Source: a virus (Duplodnaviria > Heunggongvirae > Uroviricota > Caudoviricetes). Taken from it: DNA of 64,000 nt. Positions within the stretch are counted from its first letter, which is position 1. Each line of letters begins with the position of its first letter. The notes below the pieces were generated by a model. The model was not told the origin of the DNA, did not search any database, and was given only the letters and a program-made list of their open reading frames with translations. Where the stretch lies: the IMG/VR virus record IMGVR_UViG_2537561979_000003; one strand, 5' to 3'. Positions 26,028-33,464 of the stretch are shown piece by piece. Both the position numbers and the translations under genes were made by a program.

Positions 26028-27059
26028 CTAATCGCCATCTTCCAGCAGGCGCACCATTGCCCCTGTTTCACTATCCAGGTTACGGATATAGTTCATGACA
26101 ATATTTACATTGGTCCAGCCACCAGCTTGCATGATCTCCGGTATTGAAACTCCAGCGCGGGCCATATCTCGCGCGGCTCCGACACGGGCACTGTGTCCAG
26201 ACCAGGCCAGGTATCTCTGACCAGAGTCATCCTTAGCGCCGTAAATCAATCGATGAGTTGCTTCAAAAATCCCTTCCAGGGCGCGAGTTGATAGCTGGCT
26301 GGTGGCAGATGGCGCGGCAACACCATTTTTTCTGACCCGGCAAAACAGGTAGTTATTCGGATCATCAGCCACACCAGAGACAGAAATCCATCGCTCGACC
26401 AGTTTAGTTACCCCCAGGCTAAGTGCCTTCTCTACACCTGCGGTGCTAACCAGTGTTTTCGTTCTGCCAATATGGATTAACATTCTCCCACCGTCAGTAC
26501 GTGAGATATCTTTAACCCTGATCCTGGCAATTTCGGCTATACGTAACAGGGTGTTATAAGCAATCCCCAGAAATGCCAGATTCCGTATATCCTGGCAGCG
26601 ATCGCTATTTTCCATGAGTGAACGAACCTGGTCGAAATCAGTGCGTTCGAACGCCAATGCCTGTTTTGCACGTTCACCGGCATCAACGTTTTCTTTTCGA
26701 ATCCGCCGCATGACCAGTGAAACAGCATTGCTGTCACTTGGTCGTGGCAGCCCGGACCGACGATGAAGCATGTTTAGCTGGCCCAAATGTTGCTGGATAG
26801 TTTTTACTGCCAGACCGCGCGCCTGAAGATATAGAAGATAATCGCGAACATCTTCAGGTTCTGCGGGAAACCACTTCCGGTTATTCAACTTGCACCATGC
26901 CGCCCACGACCGGCAAACGGACAGAAGCATTTTCCAGGTATGCTCAGAAAACGCCTGGCGATCCCTGAACATGTCCATCAGGTTCTTGCGAACCTCATCA
27001 CTCGTTGCATCGACCGGTAATGCAGGCAAATTTTGGTGTACGGTCAGTAAATTGGACAT
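26028..27059 (-). CDS. cre: Cre site-specific tyrosine recombinase, 343 aa
   Basis: MSNLLTVHQNLPALPVDATSDEVRKNLMDMFRDRQAFSEHTWKMLLSVCRSWAAWCKLNNRKWFPAEPEDVRDYLLYLQARGLAVKTIQQHLGQLNMLHRRSGLPRPSDSNAVSLVMRRIRKENVDAGERAK... ending MVRLLEDGD matches Cre. Confidence 0.98.
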   Translation of the reverse strand: MSNLLTVHQNLPALPVDATSDEVRKNLMDMFRDRQAFSEHTWKMLLSVCRSWAAWCKLNNRKWFPAEPEDVRDYLLYLQARGLAVKTIQQHLGQLNMLHRRSGLPRPSDSNAVSLVMRRIRKENVDAGERAKQALAFERTDFDQVRSLMENSDRCQDIRNLAFLGIAYNTLLRIAEIARIRVKDISRTDGGRMLIHIGRTKTLVSTAGVEKALSLGVTKLVERWISVSGVADDPNNYLFCRVRKNGVAAPSATSQLSTRALEGIFEATHRLIYGAKDDSGQRYLAWSGHSARVGAARDMARAGVSIPEIMQAGGWTNVNIVMNYIRNLDSETGAMVRLLEDGD

Positions 27060-27066
27060 TTAACAC

Positions 27067-27288
27067 TCAGATAATAGTTTTAAGTAAAGTGTACAGGATT
27101 GGCTCTGCCTTTACCTGTTTATGGTTCTCGTCATAGAAACGCCAGCGACCGCGCGTGCGTTCTATTTTCTCTTCACCGCGCGATAATGACAGTTGGCAAC
27201 TATCACGATCAAACCCTTTTGCCCGCCAGTAACCACGGTTTTTCTCAAGCTCAAGATGAGTGGACACTTTAGCAGCTGAATATCCCAT
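27067..27288 (-). CDS. small ORF in the cre upstream region, 73 aa
   Basis: Strong SD GAGGTG preceded by CCAATCAATCA; ends 8 nt before the cre ATG. Confidence 0.35.
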   Translation of the reverse strand: MGYSAAKVSTHLELEKNRGYWRAKGFDRDSCQLSLSRGEEKIERTRGRWRFYDENHKQVKAEPILYTLLKTII

Positions 27289-27320
27289 TTTTCACCTCTG
27301 ATTGATTGGTGGTGCTAAGT

Positions 27321-27379
27321 GCGCTACGCGAAATCTGTAGGACTAACACCGCCAATTTTTCACAGATTTTACGTAGCGC
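27321..27379. repeat. 18-bp near-perfect inverted repeat with ~23-bp spacer
   Basis: gcgctacgcgaaatctgt (27321-38) and acagattttacgtagcgc (27362-79). Confidence 0.6.
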
Positions 27380-27384
27380 AACCT

Positions 27385-27459
27385 TGATCAAATGATCAAG
27401 TGATCACTATTTGACCTGCCAAGGTATTGAACTGTATGGATTTACAGGTAAATTGATCA
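27385..27459. promoter_or_regulatory. cluster of four TGATCA (Dam GATC) sites next to loxP; candidate methylation-sensitive cre regulatory region
   Basis: TGATCA at 27385, 27393, 27401 and 27454. Confidence 0.5.
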
Positions 27460-27476
27460 TGTTCAATAACCCTTAA

Positions 27477-27510
27477 GATAACTTCGTATAATGTATGCTA
27501 TACGAAGTTA
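27477..27510. other. loxP: loxP recombination site
   Basis: Exact ATAACTTCGTATAATGTATGCTATACGAAGTTAT. Confidence 0.98.
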
Positions 27511-27554
27511 TCAGGTCCGAAGAGGAGTTTACGTCCAGCTGCGCACAAAAATCA

Positions 27555-27571
27555 AGAAATATTAGAGCAAT
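27555..27571 (-). promoter_or_regulatory. C1 operator-like site
   Basis: Minus strand ATTGCTCTAATATTTCT. Confidence 0.55.
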
Positions 27572-27631: not shown

Positions 27632-27659
27632 TTGACAATTGCTCTAATAAATTATAGTT
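27632..27659 (+). promoter_or_regulatory. sigma70-type promoter overlapped by a C1 operator, reading toward coi-c1
   Basis: TTGACA (27632-37) immediately followed by ATTGCTCTAATAAATTA (27638-54, 16/17) and TATAGT. Confidence 0.65.
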
Positions 27660-29096: not shown

Positions 29097-30209
29097 TTAT
29101 TCAGCCGCCACCGGTTTTAACAAGCCAGCATCTAGCAGTTTACGCGTCAACCACTGCTGGCCTTTACCCGTTAATTGAGGCGTCAACCGTATCTGGTAGC
29201 CATCTTCATCATCCAGCACCACTTCTTTCACCGTGAAATACCCCGCGTTGATGTACTGCTGGAACGGCACATTTTTACGTCCACCGGACGCTATCAGGAT
29301 GCCGTTCTCCCGTAACCAGACAAACAGCGCGTTTTGCTTAAGTCCAACAACCTTTGCAAAATTCCCAATCAGGATCCCTTTAGCTACTGATACCCGGTCG
29401 GCAAAATCGACTTTAGGAGCGGCGGCCACCAGCTGCTGATTTAGCTGGTGGGCTTTCTGTTCCAGAAGCTGCTTTTGTTCAGCCAGTTCGGCAGCTAGGC
29501 GCAGAGCTTCTGGAAGCGTCTGGGGGATTGCAACCGGTTGCTGTTCTTTTTGCCGGAAGTAGCTGTCTTCCAGTTTTTCAAAGAATGCCCATGCTTCATT
29601 TGTGTCCACGATCTTAGACATGCGTGCAGCGCCGCGCTCTGTCCAGAGTGTAAGGCTTCTGGCGTTCTTACCAACAGAGTAACTTCCGGTTACTCTGTTC
29701 TTAAATTCTCTTAATTTTAAACCAGTTAGAAGAAAGTAATGCTTACCTTCTTCAAAGCGGTCAAGGTTGCGAGACAAATTGTTGCGAATATTGGCTTCAT
29801 CGACCCCATACCCTCTAGCAAGAGTTTCGGTTGTCACGACACGTACTCCCTGCCATTCCAGAACGGGAATTTCATCCGGCTGATTCTGAACAACCACCAG
29901 TTCCGATTCCTGAACTGAAGGTGCATAAATTTTTTCTGATTTAACGTTAGTTGCTTTCATTCTGTGTGCCTCCTTGCGTGCTTCGGCTGCGACGGTTGCG
30001 TAATTCAGATGCCCCTGTTCGAGCAGGTATTCGCGGATATCAGACAGCAGGATACGGTGAACCGCGTTCTTGTCCTTTCTCCGGTAAAGTTGTTTGGTGA
30101 TCATGAAGTAGTTGGCAATAACGCCAGGTATATCCCTGGTACTGATACAGGCAGTGTGCTGTTCAATTGCCTCGATCATCTCTTCACGGGTAACTAACGA
30201 TGTTCTCAT
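29097..30209 (-). CDS. antirepressor-like protein (ORF6N-type N-domain plus KilA-C-type C-domain), 370 aa
   Basis: Central block VVTTETLARGYGVDEANIRNNLSRNLDRFEEGKHYFLL and C-terminal DFADRVSVAKGILIGNFAKVVGLKQNALFVWLRENGIL resemble phage Ant/KilAC antirepressors; start overlaps the stop of an upstream 73-codon ORF. Confidence 0.7.
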   Translation of the reverse strand: MRTSLVTREEMIEAIEQHTACISTRDIPGVIANYFMITKQLYRRKDKNAVHRILLSDIREYLLEQGHLNYATVAAEARKEAHRMKATNVKSEKIYAPSVQESELVVVQNQPDEIPVLEWQGVRVVTTETLARGYGVDEANIRNNLSRNLDRFEEGKHYFLLTGLKLREFKNRVTGSYSVGKNARSLTLWTERGAARMSKIVDTNEAWAFFEKLEDSYFRQKEQQPVAIPQTLPEALRLAAELAEQKQLLEQKAHQLNQQLVAAAPKVDFADRVSVAKGILIGNFAKVVGLKQNALFVWLRENGILIASGGRKNVPFQQYINAGYFTVKEVVLDDEDGYQIRLTPQLTGKGQQWLTRKLLDAGLLKPVAAE

Positions 30210-30427
30210 AGTCCCTCCTGAGCAGAAGCGTTAACAGGGAGGCACCAGTAACTGAGAGAATTGCGTGAATCAGTGGAAAAACGGGCAGAGAAAATACATG
30301 GGGCGTCAGGAAGCTGAGAACGTGCCTCATCTTCTGTCGGTGCAATAACGAAGTGATAGTGACGTTTTTGGCAGGAGTAAAAGCGCCAGATAAATTCAGG
30401 ATGAGCAGGGGTAGGGATAGTAGCCAC
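30206..30427 (-). CDS. Icd-like 73-codon ORF translationally coupled to the antirepressor (GTG start)
   Basis: GGAGG SD 8 nt upstream of GTG; stop overlaps the antirepressor ATG (cTATGAga). Confidence 0.4.
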   Translation of the reverse strand: MATIPTPAHPEFIWRFYSCQKRHYHFVIAPTEDEARSQLPDAPCIFSARFSTDSRNSLSYWCLPVNASAQEGL

Positions 30428-30429
30428 AA

Positions 30430-30766
30430 TGGCAGCCTCCTTTTGCTAATTTAAGGAGCTACCGCGTGAGGTCTCAATCTCAATGGCGGTAGCACTGACT
30501 GGGTTGAGACTACCGGCGCAAAAGGGAACCGGCCTGCCTTTCGGCAGCCCAGCCAGCACTACCATTGATCTCTGAGCTAAACGCTACGTATGGCTGTGCG
30601 ATGGCATGACACAAAAAAAGACGCTTTTGGCGTCTGTGTCGCCTTTTGCATTATCCGGGGTCTCAATCCCGGCACCCGTTTTAATGAGGTGCCTGATAAG
30701 CATAAACCGAAAATGCCTCAAGGCGCAAGAGGTCAGGTTCAATGTAACATCGGCAGTTAAAAAACA
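30430..30766 (-). promoter_or_regulatory. structured leader region with alternative-pairing elements and an internal intrinsic terminator
   Basis: Minus-strand hairpins ccggg-AUUGAGAC-cccgg and cuaccgc-...UUGAGAUUGAGAC...-gcgguag, an upstream complementary GUCUCAA segment, and terminator agacgc-caaaa-gcgtct plus T7 (plus coordinates about 30618-30645). Confidence 0.4.
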
Positions 30767-30783
30767 CAATTTATTAGAGCAAA
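30767..30783 (-). promoter_or_regulatory. C1 operator-like site at the head of the antirepressor leader
   Basis: Minus strand TTTGCTCTAATAAATTG, 15/17 to consensus. Confidence 0.55.
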
Positions 30784-30786
30784 TAT

Positions 30787-32271
30787 TCATTCATTAAGCC
30801 ATGCCAGAGCTTCATCAACCTGCGCTTCGTCTTCGACGCTAAGCACTTCATCCTGGGGAACATAATCCGCCAGCATAGCGAAACAATATGTATCCCAATG
30901 GTCTGGTGAGTGCAGGTTGAGTTTTTTCTTCATATCCTCCTTACTCATCACCTTCCATTGACCTGCGGAGTTAATCCCTACAGGGATTTTCGACGCTTCC
31001 TCAATAGTTTCATTACCCTTATCCAGTCTCATACGACCAGATTTTACGGCCTCTGCGGCTTGAACGTTGGCATAAGCACGTTTATCAAAGTACAGGCTCT
31101 TATCTTCACGGCTATGCATCTTTTTACCCCAGCGTATACGCTGTACGGTAATACCATAATACTCGTACATCAGATCCGCCGTTGCTTTACCCAGGCCATC
31201 GCCGTCTATCGCTATGGTGATATTGGGGAATCGCTCAGGATTACATTCTGCGAAAATTTTGGCGGCAAGCTGCGTTTCTGTAACGTCTGTGTATTCCAGC
31301 ATTCGATAGTTGATTACACGGCGTTTATTTCTCTGGCCGGACACCATCATGATATTGATAACGGACTTATCCCTTCCCGTGCCACCAGCAACGTCCACAC
31401 ATGCAAGCCAGCCCCATCCTTTGGCAATCTTGACTTTCCGCCGCGTTGCGCGTTCAACCTCATCACGTCCAAGAAGGAAGCCATCCTGTGATTTAGGGAA
31501 TAGGCCGCGTACCTTAATCATGTACATAGGGTTATCACGCCCACCGTACTCCGCCAGCTTCATTTTGATAAATGCTGGCGTTACCAACGGTGATTCCTCA
31601 CTGTTAAGCGTGATCGCCGTATAAACGCCATCAGGGTTACCAGGACGCTTGGCCAGTTTATGGTGTGTATCGTAGAAATAGCCGCTTGGGCGTGTAGGCT
31701 GTGACAGCAATAAGATGCGGTTATCCTGTCCGGTAAGAGCACCGGTGATGATACCGAAAGCTCTATCACTGACACCGGAGGCTTCATCGATAATATACAG
31801 AAGATGATCTGCGTGTTCACCGGCGAGAGCTTCTTCACTTCCCAGACGAAAGCCCTTCGGTACTACAGTCCATACACCTTTACCAGTAACCTCATAGAAA
31901 GCGGTTTCTGTCAGAACAAAATAATCAGCAAGCCATGGAAAACGGCTGGTGGCAGTAGCCCAGTTTATCTTGATGTACTTGAATATACCGGTCATTACCT
32001 GCTGAATTTTGTTCGCAACGATAATGGCTCGGGCACCGGGATACATGATTATGAACAACATGATCATGATAGAAGTCATGTCTGATTTCCCGGTACCATG
32101 ACCAGACGAAACAGATGTCTTGCTACCCTGTTCCTGCACAGACTCAATAATCAGATCCTGCTGCCAGGTAGGTGTTTTGCCGAACAAAACATCAGCGGCC
32201 GCAATCCAGTCATAACGATATAGCGCCACCAGCTCGCGCCAACGTGGATCCGTTACGCAACTTCTGGCCAT
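30787..32271 (-). CDS. pacB: terminase large subunit PacB, 494 aa
   Basis: Terminase ATPase/nuclease fold (Walker [11 protein letters not shown]); start overlaps the pacA stop; size matches P1 PacB. Confidence 0.85.
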
Positions 32272-33464
32272 TAATCATCATCCCCGTATAGCTTGCGGGT
32301 AACTTCTTCGTCTTCCTCCTCGTCTTCGTCCAGGTCTTGTTCCAGCCATGGGTCGTTTGATACACCTTCAGTATCAACATCTCCATAACCGCCTGTATCA
32401 ACGATATCGGCGATTTCTTCCCTACGCTGCTCAATCCACAATGCGGCATCGGCGCGGCGGTTGGCGGCCCGTTCTCGCGCAACTTTGTCCAGATCTTCAA
32501 GAGAAGGGCCACCGACGGCTGTTTGCCTTTCCTCATCATCGGTATTGGTCTTAGGAGCACGCAGATCGGCTTTGATTTGCTCCAGCATCAGGGGCGGAAC
32601 TTTCCCGCCATGCGCCTCGATGAATTCAGCTGCTTCCAGCACTGACCAGTTATTTTCACGCTTTCGTTCGTATGCCAGTTTAACAATGCCAGCTTGCCCC
32701 ATAGACAAAGCGTGCTTTTCCGCCTCCCGGCTTTCTTTTCGATAGTTATTCCGGATGCTGTAAATGGTGTTGATCAGGCTGCTTATCTGCGCGGAACAGC
32801 TGTTTAGCATGCTCGCGATACGGTATTCAGGCGGAGTTCCTTCATCATCGTCTTTTTGCTGATCGCGCATTTCCTGAACCAAGCGAATACACGTATCCCT
32901 GGCGTTCTCCAGCATAAGGAGATGAGAGAGAGACTTTTCCAGAAGAGTGGTTTCCAGAACATCAGCCCCGGACCGACGCAACATAGCGCGCGCGGCCTTC
33001 CGCGCTTCAACGTTATCTATCAGGTAATCGCCAGCTTCGAATTCAAAGCGTTCACCATCATCATCCAGGGTGTCGCGTTCCAGGCGATCACGTAAGGTCC
33101 GGTGGGCGCGGGTGATCACGTCATGATCATCAGAACGATCATTTATGCGCTTATTCTGGCGCTTCGCGTTCTCGACTGCGGCACTGACAACAGCATTAAC
33201 TCTTTGTTTTTCAGCCATTTCAGCCACAACGTGATCACCTGCACGTTGATCATTAGCGTGATCAATGATCATGCTTTTTAGTGGTTTTCTGACAGGCTTA
33301 TTTGGCTTACGGCTGTCCGCTGTTCCGGTGTCTTCTTTGAATGCACGGAGATAACGACGTGCGGTGTTTGGGTTGAGATTAAACTCGGCGGCATATTGTG
33401 CGATGGTGTAACCACCATCTCGCGCCAGGCGAGCAAAATTCTTCTTGTGATCGTCCCAGGTCAC
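32271..33464 (-). CDS. pacA: terminase small/recognition subunit PacA, 397 aa; contains the pac site
   Basis: 397 aa; N-terminal HTH-like [29 protein letters not shown]; two clusters of TGATCA hexamers inside the ORF. Confidence 0.85.
33112..33272. other. pac: pac packaging site (two clusters of Dam-methylatable TGATCA hexamers)
   Basis: Hexamers at 33112, 33124, 33136 (plus 33083) and at 33232, 33247, 33259, 33267. Confidence 0.7.

What the first reader, a model, noticed from the sequence alone, without database searches (positions are those of the whole stretch)
27321..27510. loxP flanked by a GATC cluster and an 18-bp inverted repeat in the cre upstream region
Next to the exact loxP site lie four TGATCA sites (27385-27459) and a long inverted repeat (27321-27379), all upstream of cre and the 73-codon ORF. 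This suggests methylation-sensitive and structure-dependent control of Cre expression. The inverted repeat is not explained by any annotated feature.
Basis: partly seen in the sequence, partly recalled or inferred. Interest (0 to 1): 0.35.

Follow-up and report, generated by a model that had tools for sequence, protein, structure and literature searches.

The report
P1 cre promoter palindrome, widely conserved
This is the already well-studied control region of the phage P1 cre gene (loxP, Dam-methylation sites, promoter pR1), but its unannotated inverted repeat turns out to be one copy of a conserved about 60-bp palindrome that sits in front of Cre-type recombinase genes in many phage-plasmids and also occurs in over a thousand Klebsiella plasmids.

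Summary
loxP is exact at 27478-27511. Four TGATCA sites lie at 27385, 27393, 27401 and 27454. A 19-nt inverted repeat (27320-27338 / 27362-27380, 17 of 19 complementary) is the only one of that quality in the 64 kb. The window is a P1-type phage-plasmid, 98-99% identical to P1 and P7.

The GATC part is already known. GenBank P1 and P7 records annotate these GATCs as Dam sites of the cre regulatory region. Two of them lie in the -35 of promoter pR1 (P3cre), described by Sternberg et al. 1986.

The inverted repeat carries no annotation in any record checked, but it is not idle sequence. Its lox-side arm holds the annotated pR1 -10 (TAAAAT), so pR1 transcripts should start in the loop.

The same palindrome, with arms GCTACG-YR-AAATCTG and a fixed length, lies just upstream of 20 of 22 diverse Cre/Dre homologues chosen by protein alone. 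It is also found in about 1,000 Klebsiella plasmids, Yersinia pYV, IncX4 plasmids and Alteromonas.

Its orientation relative to the gene differs between lineages, which argues against a simple RNA leader. It is not a terminator, an Frpo element or an Rfam family.

My best reading is a DNA-level, operator-like palindrome that P1 uses as the core of pR1. The mechanism is unproven.

The parts
27478..27511 (.). loxP, exact 34-bp site
   Evidence: Exact match, unique in the window. Annotated as lox in P1, P7 and X03453.
27454..27459 (.). TGATCA / Dam site 1 of the cre regulatory region, next to the -10 of P2coi
   Evidence: P1 record coordinates 37-40 are annotated as Dam methylation site 1. The mapping is window = 27495 - P1 coordinate, with no gaps in the alignment.
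27430..27449 (.). LexA box (CTGTATGGATTTACAG at 27432-27447), overlapping promoter P2coi
   Evidence: Annotated as protein_bind LexA at P1 46-65 and in P7. The pattern CTGT-N8-ACAG was found here. PMC4713147 states that a LexA site overlaps the coi promoter.
27427..27454 (+). Promoter P2coi, reading across loxP towards imcA/B, coi and c1
   Evidence: P1 record feature at 41-68, mapped through alignment A1.
27385..27406 (.). Three TGATCA sites at 8-bp spacing (27385, 27393, 27401). The first two are P1 Dam sites 3 and 2. The third is TGGTCA in reference P1 but TGATCA in P7 and in this window.
   Evidence: Four of 58 P1-like variants lack one 8-bp unit.
27386..27391 (-). Annotated -35 of pR1 / P3cre (TTGATC), containing a GATC
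   Evidence: P1 record feature at 104-109. X03453 lists this as the 'altern. -35'. The spacer to the -10 is only 14 nt.
27366..27371 (-). Annotated -10 of pR1 / P3cre (TAAAAT), inside the right arm of the inverted repeat
   Evidence: P1 record feature at 124-129. Sequence read.
27362..27380 (.). Right (lox-side) arm of the inverted repeat, ACAGATTTTACGTAGCGCA
   Evidence: Nearly invariant in 58 unique P1-like sequences.
27339..27361 (.). Loop of the palindrome (AGGACTAACACCGCCAATTTTTC). The expected pR1 start lies here, near 27359.
   Evidence: It is the most variable stretch among P1-like variants. It is homologous to the C-rich/T-rich loop of the family. The start site is inferred from the position of the -10.
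27320..27338 (.). Left (cra-side) arm of the inverted repeat, TGCGCTACGCGAAATCTGT, ending 31 nt before the cra start codon
   Evidence: The 1986 sequence X03453 has a 2-nt gap and a mismatch here.
27316..27384 (.). Full 69-nt match to the covariance model of the palindrome family. It is the single copy in the window.
   Evidence: Model R1: 68.5 bits on the + strand and 51.6 bits on the - strand. The next hit scores 11 bits.
27067..27288 (-). cra (ORF1, 73 aa), with promoters pR2 (27183-27212) and pR3 (27071-27095) inside it
   Evidence: ORF list. P1 and X03453 annotation. Matches phrog_804 of unknown function and no Pfam family.
26028..27059 (-). cre (343 aa)
   Evidence: ORF list. Annotated as Cre in P1 and P7.

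Best explanation
The region is the divergent control region between loxP and cra-cre of a P1-type phage-plasmid. The parts shown by sequence or annotation are:
- an exact loxP;
- a LexA box overlapping P2coi;
- Dam sites lying in and next to the -35 of the weak promoter pR1 (P3cre);
- the pR1 -10 (TAAAAT).

The inverted repeat is a separate, conserved module. It is a palindrome of about 61-69 bp with arms GCGCTACG-YR-AAATCTG, a fixed 53 nt from CTACG to CGTAG, and an asymmetric loop.

Inferred mechanism: the palindrome acts on double-stranded DNA as an operator-like site, recognised in a symmetric and orientation-independent way by a host factor that has not been identified.
- In P1 its lox-side arm fills the pR1 spacer and -10, and its cra-side arm lies at about +21 to +39.
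- Occupancy of both arms would therefore clamp the pR1 start site and keep cra-cre transcription low.
- The adjacent GATC sites add the known Dam (replication/methylation-state) input at the -35.
- P1 seems to have turned the arm into a usable -10 through the only variable dinucleotide of the arm: TA in P1, against TG or CG elsewhere.
For: Identity of the region:
- 98-99% identical to P1 and P7, and the annotated features map without gaps.

The palindrome is real and constrained:
- It is unique in 64 kb, with none in 100 shuffles.
- In 58 unique P1-like sequences the arms have 3 variable positions, whereas the 23-nt loop has about 11.

It is a module and not P1-specific:
- blastn finds only the palindrome, not its flanks, in about 1,000 Klebsiella IncHI1B/IncFIB(K) plasmids, in Yersinia pYV and in IncX4 plasmids.
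- Among Klebsiella plasmids it is a conserved island between divergent flanks.

Link to recombinase genes:
- Of 22 diverse non-P1 Cre homologues chosen by protein only, 20 have the element just upstream.
- In a genome scan, all 13 Cre-like genes near a copy have it upstream of the start. The distance is 26-46 nt in Enterobacterales and 207-357 nt in Alteromonas.

A DNA-level, symmetric function is suggested by four points:
- The arm sequence itself, not just its pairing, is conserved across recombinases with different target sites (loxP, rox-like, an Alteromonas site).
- The length is fixed.
- The orientation relative to the gene is opposite in P1 and L338 compared with Pantoea-type and L334-337 loci.
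- G:T and A:C departures show no strand bias.

The pR1 -10 lies in the arm.
Against: - No binding protein is identified, and I could match no known E. coli operator motif from memory.
- The arms are about 42 bp apart centre to centre, which is unusual for a single operator.
- The loop holds a small inner hairpin (AGGG-N4-7-CCCT) that co-varies between lineages. That favours a folded single strand over a duplex site.
- Some lineages keep only one arm: D6 dre, L339/L344 and L334-337. Cronobacter JK004 has none. The pairing is therefore dispensable there.
- Many copies lie far from any recombinase gene, for example between convergent genes, after gyrB in Grimontia, and in multiple copies in Pseudomonas and Azotobacter. 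This looks more like a REP- or MITE-type element.
- The annotated pR1 has a 14-nt spacer and does not pass a simple sigma-70 scan. The pR1 assignment itself rests on the 1986 experiments, which I could not read.
Confidence: 0.4

Rival explanations
1. The palindrome is a REP-, REPIN- or MITE-like selfish or structural intergenic element. It would be recognised as a folded single strand by a trans-acting enzyme, or simply tolerated. It was inherited with, or inserted next to, the recombinase gene. Its arm happens to supply a -10, much as Correia elements supply promoters in Neisseria (own knowledge).
For: - The same core occurs in many unrelated intergenic contexts, often between convergent genes or right after a stop codon, for example 11 nt after gyrB in five Grimontia genomes.
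- There are several copies per genome in Pseudomonas borbori, P. tumuqii and Azotobacter beijerinckii, embedded in longer palindromes.
- The outer ends are CTAC...GTAG, the tetranucleotide typical of REPs (own knowledge).
- It is found in either orientation relative to neighbouring genes.
- Near-identical arms occur in hosts whose flanking DNA is unalignable.
- It has partly decayed in D6 and L339/L344.
Against: - It is single-copy in this window.
- In E. coli it is essentially confined to plasmids: 689 of 701 places, one per genome.
- I saw no target-site duplication and no empty site.
- Its position 26-46 nt before the start codon is kept across recombinases that are only 40-55% identical. 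That fits vertical inheritance under selection, not repeated insertion.
- Some distant hits of the palindromic search pattern are probably chance palindromes or terminators. By my estimate about 100 are expected in 596 Gb.
Confidence: 0.27
2. The repeat works as an RNA hairpin in cra-cre leader transcripts that begin upstream of it. A 19-23-bp stem lying 31 nt before the cra start codon would serve as an RNase III or stability determinant, or as an insulator against read-through.
For: - The RNA fold is strong: -30 to -34 kcal/mol, z -3.4 to -4.5.
- Pantoea-type copies keep pairing on the sense strand through U:G wobbles, and the stem extends with different flanking sequence (GGCGUC/GACGUC).
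- The distance to the start codon is conserved.
Against: - The annotated pR1 -10 is inside the upstream arm, so pR1 RNA lacks that arm.
- I found no convincing promoter upstream of the hairpin on the cre strand (and my own reading).
- The orientation of the loop and flank differs between lineages.
- Wobble versus A:C departures show no overall strand bias.
- No Rfam family matches.
Confidence: 0.15
3. The repeat acts as a single-stranded DNA hairpin, either as an ssDNA promoter or as a priming signal. It would be used when the DNA is transiently single-stranded, during conjugative entry of the plasmids that carry it or during rolling-circle or lagging-strand synthesis in P1.
For: - In Klebsiella conjugative plasmids it lies about 0.8 kb upstream of a gene block that includes psiA.
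- In the P1 minus-strand hairpin, the first two bases of TAAAAT are the two mismatched positions (T:G and A:C). This would pre-melt the -10.
- The DNA hairpin has z -4.1 to -4.9.
Against: - The stem is too short to hold a -35.
- There is no similarity to the known Frpo/ssi sequences or to the G4 complementary-strand origin.
- As an ssDNA promoter the P1 copy would point away from cre.
- The Klebsiella locus is not next to transfer genes.
- P1 infects as double-stranded DNA (own knowledge).
Confidence: 0.08
4. The inverted repeat is a chance feature without function.
For: The two central arm positions are mismatched. The innermost pair is G/G in most P1-like genomes.
Against: - None of that quality appears in 100 shuffles, and it is unique in 64 kb.
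- The arms are conserved while the loop varies.
- It is present upstream of 20 of 22 independent Cre homologues and in more than 1,000 unrelated plasmids.
Confidence: 0.02

Closest known systems
Bacteriophage P1 / P7 cre regulatory region (loxP; promoters pR1-pR3 = P3cre-P1cre; Dam sites; ORF1 = cra), from Sternberg et al. 1986 and the P1 and P7 genome records AF234172 and AF503408
   Same: - 98-99% identical DNA.
- loxP is exact.
- Same ORF1/cra and cre, the same annotated promoter hexamers, the same LexA box and P2coi.
- The Dam sites are in the same places.
   Different: - This window, like P7, has a fourth GATC (TGATCA at 27401), where reference P1 has TGGTCA.
- The inverted repeat is not annotated in any of these records.
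- The 1986 sequence lacks 2 nt of one arm.
Dam-sensitive promoters with GATC in a promoter hexamer, such as the IS10 transposase promoter pIN (own knowledge)
   Same: A GATC lies inside the -35 of a weak promoter for a DNA-rearranging enzyme. This gives a way to tie expression to methylation state.
   Different: - Here three TGATCA sites lie at 8-bp spacing, and the cluster is also kept 55-88 nt upstream of the palindrome in Pantoea-type Dre-like loci.
- Dam dependence was not tested here.
P1 pac site (clusters of TGATCA/G hexamers whose methylation controls cleavage; Sternberg and Coulby 1990, cited)
   Same: Same hexamer and the same clustered layout. It is the only other such cluster in the window, at 33113-33271.
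   Different: Different place and partner. No pacase role is known or suggested for the cre-side cluster.
REP / BIME / REPIN elements and promoter-bearing MITEs such as Neisseria Correia elements (own knowledge)
   Same: - Short intergenic palindromes with conserved ends (CTAC...GTAG).
- Either orientation, often at gene ends.
- Multi-copy in some genomes.
- Can contribute a -10.
   Different: - Single-copy and confined to mobile elements in E. coli.
- No duplication of flanking sequence was seen.
- Kept at a fixed distance upstream of Cre-family genes.
Frpo / ssi single-stranded DNA promoters of plasmid leading regions (PMC11541004)
   Same: A hairpin with a -10-like hexamer in the stem and mismatches at the -10. 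It is present in conjugative plasmids near psiA.
   Different: - Frpo elements are about 300 nt and carry -35, -10 and UP elements in the stem.
- There is no sequence similarity.
- The stem here is only 16-23 bp.

Membership tests
P1-type cre regulatory region | Exact loxP next to cra-cre, with near-identity to P1/P7 | tested here: met
P1-type cre regulatory region | GATC (Dam) sites in or next to the -35 of pR1, and the -10 TAAAAT | tested here: met
   The hexamers are identical to P1.
P1-type cre regulatory region | pR1 activity rises in dam- hosts | not testable with these tools
   This needs reporter or transcript assays. The only support here is the title of Sternberg et al. 1986 and the GenBank notes.
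Intrinsic (Rho-independent) terminator | G+C-rich stem followed directly by a run of T/U | tested here: not met
   The scan finds no terminator at 27320-27380. The flanks are ACCTTGATC on the + strand and CTTAGCACC on the - strand.
Frpo / ssi single-stranded promoter | Long hairpin holding -35, -10 and UP elements; similarity to known Frpo/ssi sequences | tested here: not met
   The arm motifs are absent from the published Frpo/ssi sequences. The stem is only 19-23 bp.
G4-type primase recognition site | Resemblance to the G4 complementary-strand origin hairpins and primer start | tested here: not met
Any curated RNA family (Rfam 15) | Covariance-model match at or near the gathering score | tested here: not met
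   Only chance-level microRNA-type hits far below threshold, both in P1 and in a Klebsiella plasmid copy.
LexA operator | CTGT-N8-ACAG | tested here: not met
   In the repeat, CTGT and ACAG are 23 nt apart. The true LexA box is separate, at 27432-27447.
REP / REPIN / MITE-type repeated palindrome | Many copies per genome | tested here: inconclusive
   There is one copy in this window and a median of one per E. coli genome, on plasmids. Several copies occur in some Pseudomonas and Azotobacter genomes.
REP / REPIN / MITE-type repeated palindrome | Target-site duplication or an empty site; an associated transposase (RAYT) | not tested
   No duplication was evident by eye in the P1, Klebsiella or Pantoea flanks. 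No systematic search was done.
Conserved palindrome upstream of Cre-family recombinase genes (defined here) | Arms GCTACG-YR-AAA(TCTG), 53 nt from CTACG to CGTAG, C-rich then T-rich loop, upstream of the recombinase start | tested here: met
   Model R1 scores 68.5 bits at 27316-27384. Family alignment A4. Present at 20 of 22 protein-selected loci.

The most novel reading that the evidence does not exclude
The inverted repeat belongs to an undescribed family of fixed-length (about 55-69 bp) palindromes that work in either orientation and are spread through gammaproteobacterial phage-plasmids, plasmids and some chromosomes. A conserved host factor, or a transient hairpin formed at replication, would recognise it. 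Together with the neighbouring Dam sites it would act as a replication-coupled switch that gives a short pulse of Cre-family recombinase expression once per replication, timing dimer resolution.
Probability: 0.2. Interest if true: 0.65.

Novelty: new member of a known kind. Interest (0 to 1): 0.35.

Why it matters
Cre-lox is among the most widely used tools in genetics, yet how P1 controls cre in its natural setting has barely been revisited since 1986. The Dam and loxP part of this finding adds nothing new.

The inverted repeat is a different matter.
- It is a conserved module kept in front of most Cre/Dre-type genes.
- It is shared with more than a thousand clinically important Klebsiella plasmids.
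- I found no annotation of it in the records checked and no description in the searchable literature.

If it is a binding site or a switch, it would explain how these recombinases are kept at low, timed levels. It would also give a handle on an unrecognised regulatory or mobile element of plasmids. If it is only a REP- or MITE-like passenger, it is a small curiosity.

Tried and rejected
- **Terminator:** no T-run on either strand, and the scan is negative.
- **Rfam family:** none in P1 or in a Klebsiella copy.
- **Frpo/ssi:** the published sequences lack the arm motif, and the stem is too short.
- **G4-type priming site:** no resemblance.
- **Operator for Cra:** the element occurs in Pantoea-type, Xenorhabdus and other loci, and in plasmids, that have no cra. 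Cra matches no Pfam or NCBIfam family, only phrog_804 of unknown function.
- **Auto-regulation by the recombinase:** the P1 arm resembles a loxP half-site at 7 of 9 inner positions by eye. However, the same arms precede recombinases with rox-like and other sites, so I rejected this as the general function.
- **Other sigma factors (sigma-32, sigma-E, sigma-54), checked by eye:** partial matches were not conserved.
- **Anti-Shine-Dalgarno loop:** the C-rich loop could pair with the ribosome-binding site in Pantoea-type loci. In P1 and Xenorhabdus the loop is inverted, and folds of pR1-type leaders are not better than shuffles.
- **Other copies of the arm in the window:** none.
- **Literature:**
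  - Łobocka 2004, Sauer and McDermott 2004, Gilcrease and Casjens 2018 and two Dam reviews are not held.
  - Sternberg 1986 itself could not be read.
  - No paper in the library holds the arm sequences in a relevant context.
- **Protein-profile scan:** the first attempt failed with an alignment that was too divergent. The second returned only P1 copies.

Full report
**What the window is.** The 1-kb stretch around the finding is 98.3-98.8% identical to phage P1, P7 and relatives. The ORFs are:
- cre, 26028-27059, minus strand;
- the 73-codon ORF, 27067-27288, minus strand, which is annotated cra (ORF1) in P1;
- coi and c1 on the plus strand, to the right of loxP.

Relative to the P1 reference the window is reversed. 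Window position equals 27495 minus the P1 coordinate, with no gaps across 27040-27494.

**Check of the observation.**
- loxP is exact and unique at 27478-27511.
- The four TGATCA sites are at 27385, 27393, 27401 and 27454.
- At the hexamer level the cluster is unlikely by chance: P about 0.001 for three in 20 bp and 0.0003 for four in 75 bp, and it never appears in 100 shuffles.
- GATC tetramers alone are too common for their clustering to be significant.
- The inverted repeat has arms at 27320-27338 and 27362-27380, 17 of 19 complementary, 23 nt apart.
- It is the only repeat of this quality in the window, and none appears in 100 dinucleotide shuffles.
- Either strand folds far better than shuffles, as RNA (z -4.5) and as DNA (z -4.1 to -4.9).

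**What is already known.** The P1 genome record annotates the following here:
- three 'Dam methylation sites within the regulatory region of cre';
- promoter P3cre (= pR1 of Sternberg et al. 1986), with its -35 at window 27386-27391 containing one of those GATCs, and its -10 at 27366-27371;
- a LexA binding site at 27430-27449;
- the opposing promoter P2coi.

The P7 record lists four Dam sites. The window shares the fourth, at 27401-27406, with P7, whereas reference P1 reads TGGTCA there. The original paper's title names 'regulation by DNA methylation'. I could not read the paper itself. The LexA site over the coi promoter is confirmed in PMC4713147 and by pattern search.

**The inverted repeat in P1.**
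- No feature in the P1, P7 or X03453 records, nor in RefSeq or PLSDB copies, covers it.
- The 1986 sequence has a 2-nt gap and a mismatch in the left arm, so the full repeat was not visible then.
- The annotated pR1 -10, TAAAAT, lies inside the right arm. The GCGCTACG part of that arm fills the unusually short 14-nt spacer.
- Transcription from pR1 should therefore begin in the loop, near 27359 (inferred), and the RNA would carry only the downstream arm.
- There is no T-run after the stem on either strand, so it is not an intrinsic terminator.
- Among 58 unique P1-like sequences, the 34 arm positions outside the innermost pair show 3 variable sites. The 23-nt loop shows about 11.
- The innermost pair is T-A in this window and in P1, but G/G in most relatives.

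**The repeat is not P1-specific.** A sensitive blastn against plasmids matched only the repeat, at 78-80% identity. The matches were in roughly 1,000 large Klebsiella IncHI1B/IncFIB(K) plasmids, Yersinia pYV and, in degenerate form, IncX4 plasmids. The Pantoea version matches the same Klebsiella plasmids at 84-90%.

In Klebsiella plasmids it is an island of conservation between flanks that cannot be aligned. It lies in an unannotated 1-kb gap between a DUF1173 gene and a block that includes psiA.

Pattern scans of viral and genome collections recovered many more copies with these shared features:
- arms CTACG-YR-AAA(TCTG);
- almost always 53 nt from CTACG to CGTAG;
- a loop with a small AGGG-N4-7-CCCT hairpin on one side and a T/A-rich tail on the other.

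Some distant hits (Hymenobacter, Actinobacteria, Bacteroidia) are probably chance palindromes or terminators. I estimate about 100 chance matches to that palindromic pattern in 596 Gb.

**Link to Cre-family recombinases.**
- In the genome scan, all 13 loci with a Cre-like gene nearby have the element upstream of the start codon. The distance is 26-46 nt in Xenorhabdus, Rosenbergiella, Enterobacter, Chimaeribacter and others, and 207-357 nt in Alteromonas. In one Alteromonas locus (L152) a lox-like inverted repeat lies in between.
- As a test not biased by the DNA pattern, I picked 22 diverse non-P1 Cre homologues (43-57% identical to the query) by protein alone. I then searched them with a covariance model of the element. 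Twenty have it immediately upstream of the gene.
- The two exceptions keep only the upstream arm.
- Phage D6, the source of Dre, keeps only the loop and the gene-side arm.
- Cronobacter phage JK004 has none.
- Pantoea-type loci also keep a rox-like site and three TGATCA sites, but 55-88 nt upstream of the palindrome rather than abutting it.

**What this says about mechanism.**

Points favouring a symmetric, DNA-level function:
- The element, including its asymmetric loop and flank, faces one way in P1 and L338 and the other way in Pantoea-type and L334-337 loci. A leader RNA would not tolerate that.
- Departures from pairing show no strand bias.
- Covariation in the stem is modest: 46 double-change cells against 34.7 +/- 4.7 in shuffles. 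This fits either a hairpin or a two-fold symmetric protein site.

Points favouring a folded strand or a REP/MITE-like element:
- the co-varying inner mini-hairpin;
- the CTAC/GTAG ends;
- copies at convergent gene ends;
- multi-copy relatives in Pseudomonas and Azotobacter.

I found no Rfam match, no similarity to Frpo/ssi or to the G4 origin, and no paper that contains the arm sequences in a relevant context.

**Verdict.**
- The GATC/loxP interpretation is correct but already known.
- The inverted repeat is real, constrained and unannotated, and it is one copy of a widespread palindrome family tied to Cre-type recombinase genes.
- My best reading (confidence about 0.4) is an operator-like DNA element that P1 uses as the core of pR1, with the Dam sites acting at the -35.
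- The rivals are a REP/MITE-like element (0.27), an RNA hairpin (0.15) and a single-stranded DNA signal (0.08).
- Only end-mapping, reporter mutants and a search for a binding protein can decide between them.

Noticed in passing
window 27432-27447 (box 27430-27449) and 27427-27454: A LexA box (CTGTATGGATTTACAG) overlaps promoter P2coi, which points across loxP towards coi and c1. It lies between the GATC sites and loxP and is annotated in P1 and P7.
   Followed up: yes
window 27401-27406: The third TGATCA is TGGTCA in reference P1 but TGATCA here and in P7. Four of 58 P1-like variants lack one 8-bp TGATCAAN unit (27393-27400), and six lose the GATC at 27455. The number of Dam sites at pR1 therefore varies between strains.
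   Followed up: partly
L002 (X03453) aligned to window 27320-27326: The 1986 P1 cre sequence has a 2-nt gap and a mismatch in the G+C-rich outer stem of the repeat. This may be a gel compression caused by the hairpin, and it would have hidden the full repeat at the time.
   Followed up: partly
window 27560-27571 and 27638-27649: Two inverted copies of ATTGCTCTAATA lie to the right of loxP. They match the C1 operator core (Op99 region; identification from my own knowledge).
   Followed up: no
window 29097-30780: Between c1 and pacB there is a 370-aa gene with ORF6N and KilAC/ANT domains, plus icd-like sequence. Reference P1 lacks these at this position, while JL22 and RCS47 share them (97.8% and 94.8%). 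The window is therefore a JL22/RCS47-type P1 relative, not P1 itself.
   Followed up: partly
window 33113-33271: This is the second TGATCA cluster of the window, with six hexamers. It lies upstream of the 494-aa ORF at 30787-32271, which looks like pacB, and is probably the P1 pac site.
   Followed up: no
L004 4159-4296 and 4300-4840 (Klebsiella plasmid NZ_CP032208): About 150 nt downstream of the Klebsiella copy of the palindrome there is a conserved 26-aa hydrophobic ORF (MSTLLVIPEFMLFVGFYIDILKLCFI). It is followed by about 500 nt of almost invariant, hairpin-rich non-coding DNA before a 200-aa gene and psiA. This could be a type I toxin or a structured leader. None of it is annotated.
   Followed up: no
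L152 6255-6286 (Alteromonas sp. S005): A perfect 12-bp inverted repeat with a 6-bp spacer (CACGCATGATAA TTACAG TTATCATGCGTG) lies 75 nt upstream of a Cre-like recombinase gene. It is a candidate lox-like site for an uncharacterised recombinase.
   Followed up: no
L157, L172, L183, L200, L223 (Pseudomonas) and L163, L182, L204, L212 (Azotobacter): Several copies per genome of a longer palindrome (about 130 nt) whose centre is GCGCTACGTGAAAAG...CTTTTCACGTAGCGC. They lie in unrelated intergenic regions and look like REPIN-type repeats. Whether they are truly related to the P1 element is open.
   Followed up: partly
L138, L167, L178, L195, L221 (Grimontia spp.): A copy of the palindrome with a typical terminator hairpin inside its loop lies 11 nt after the gyrB stop codon in five species.
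   Followed up: no
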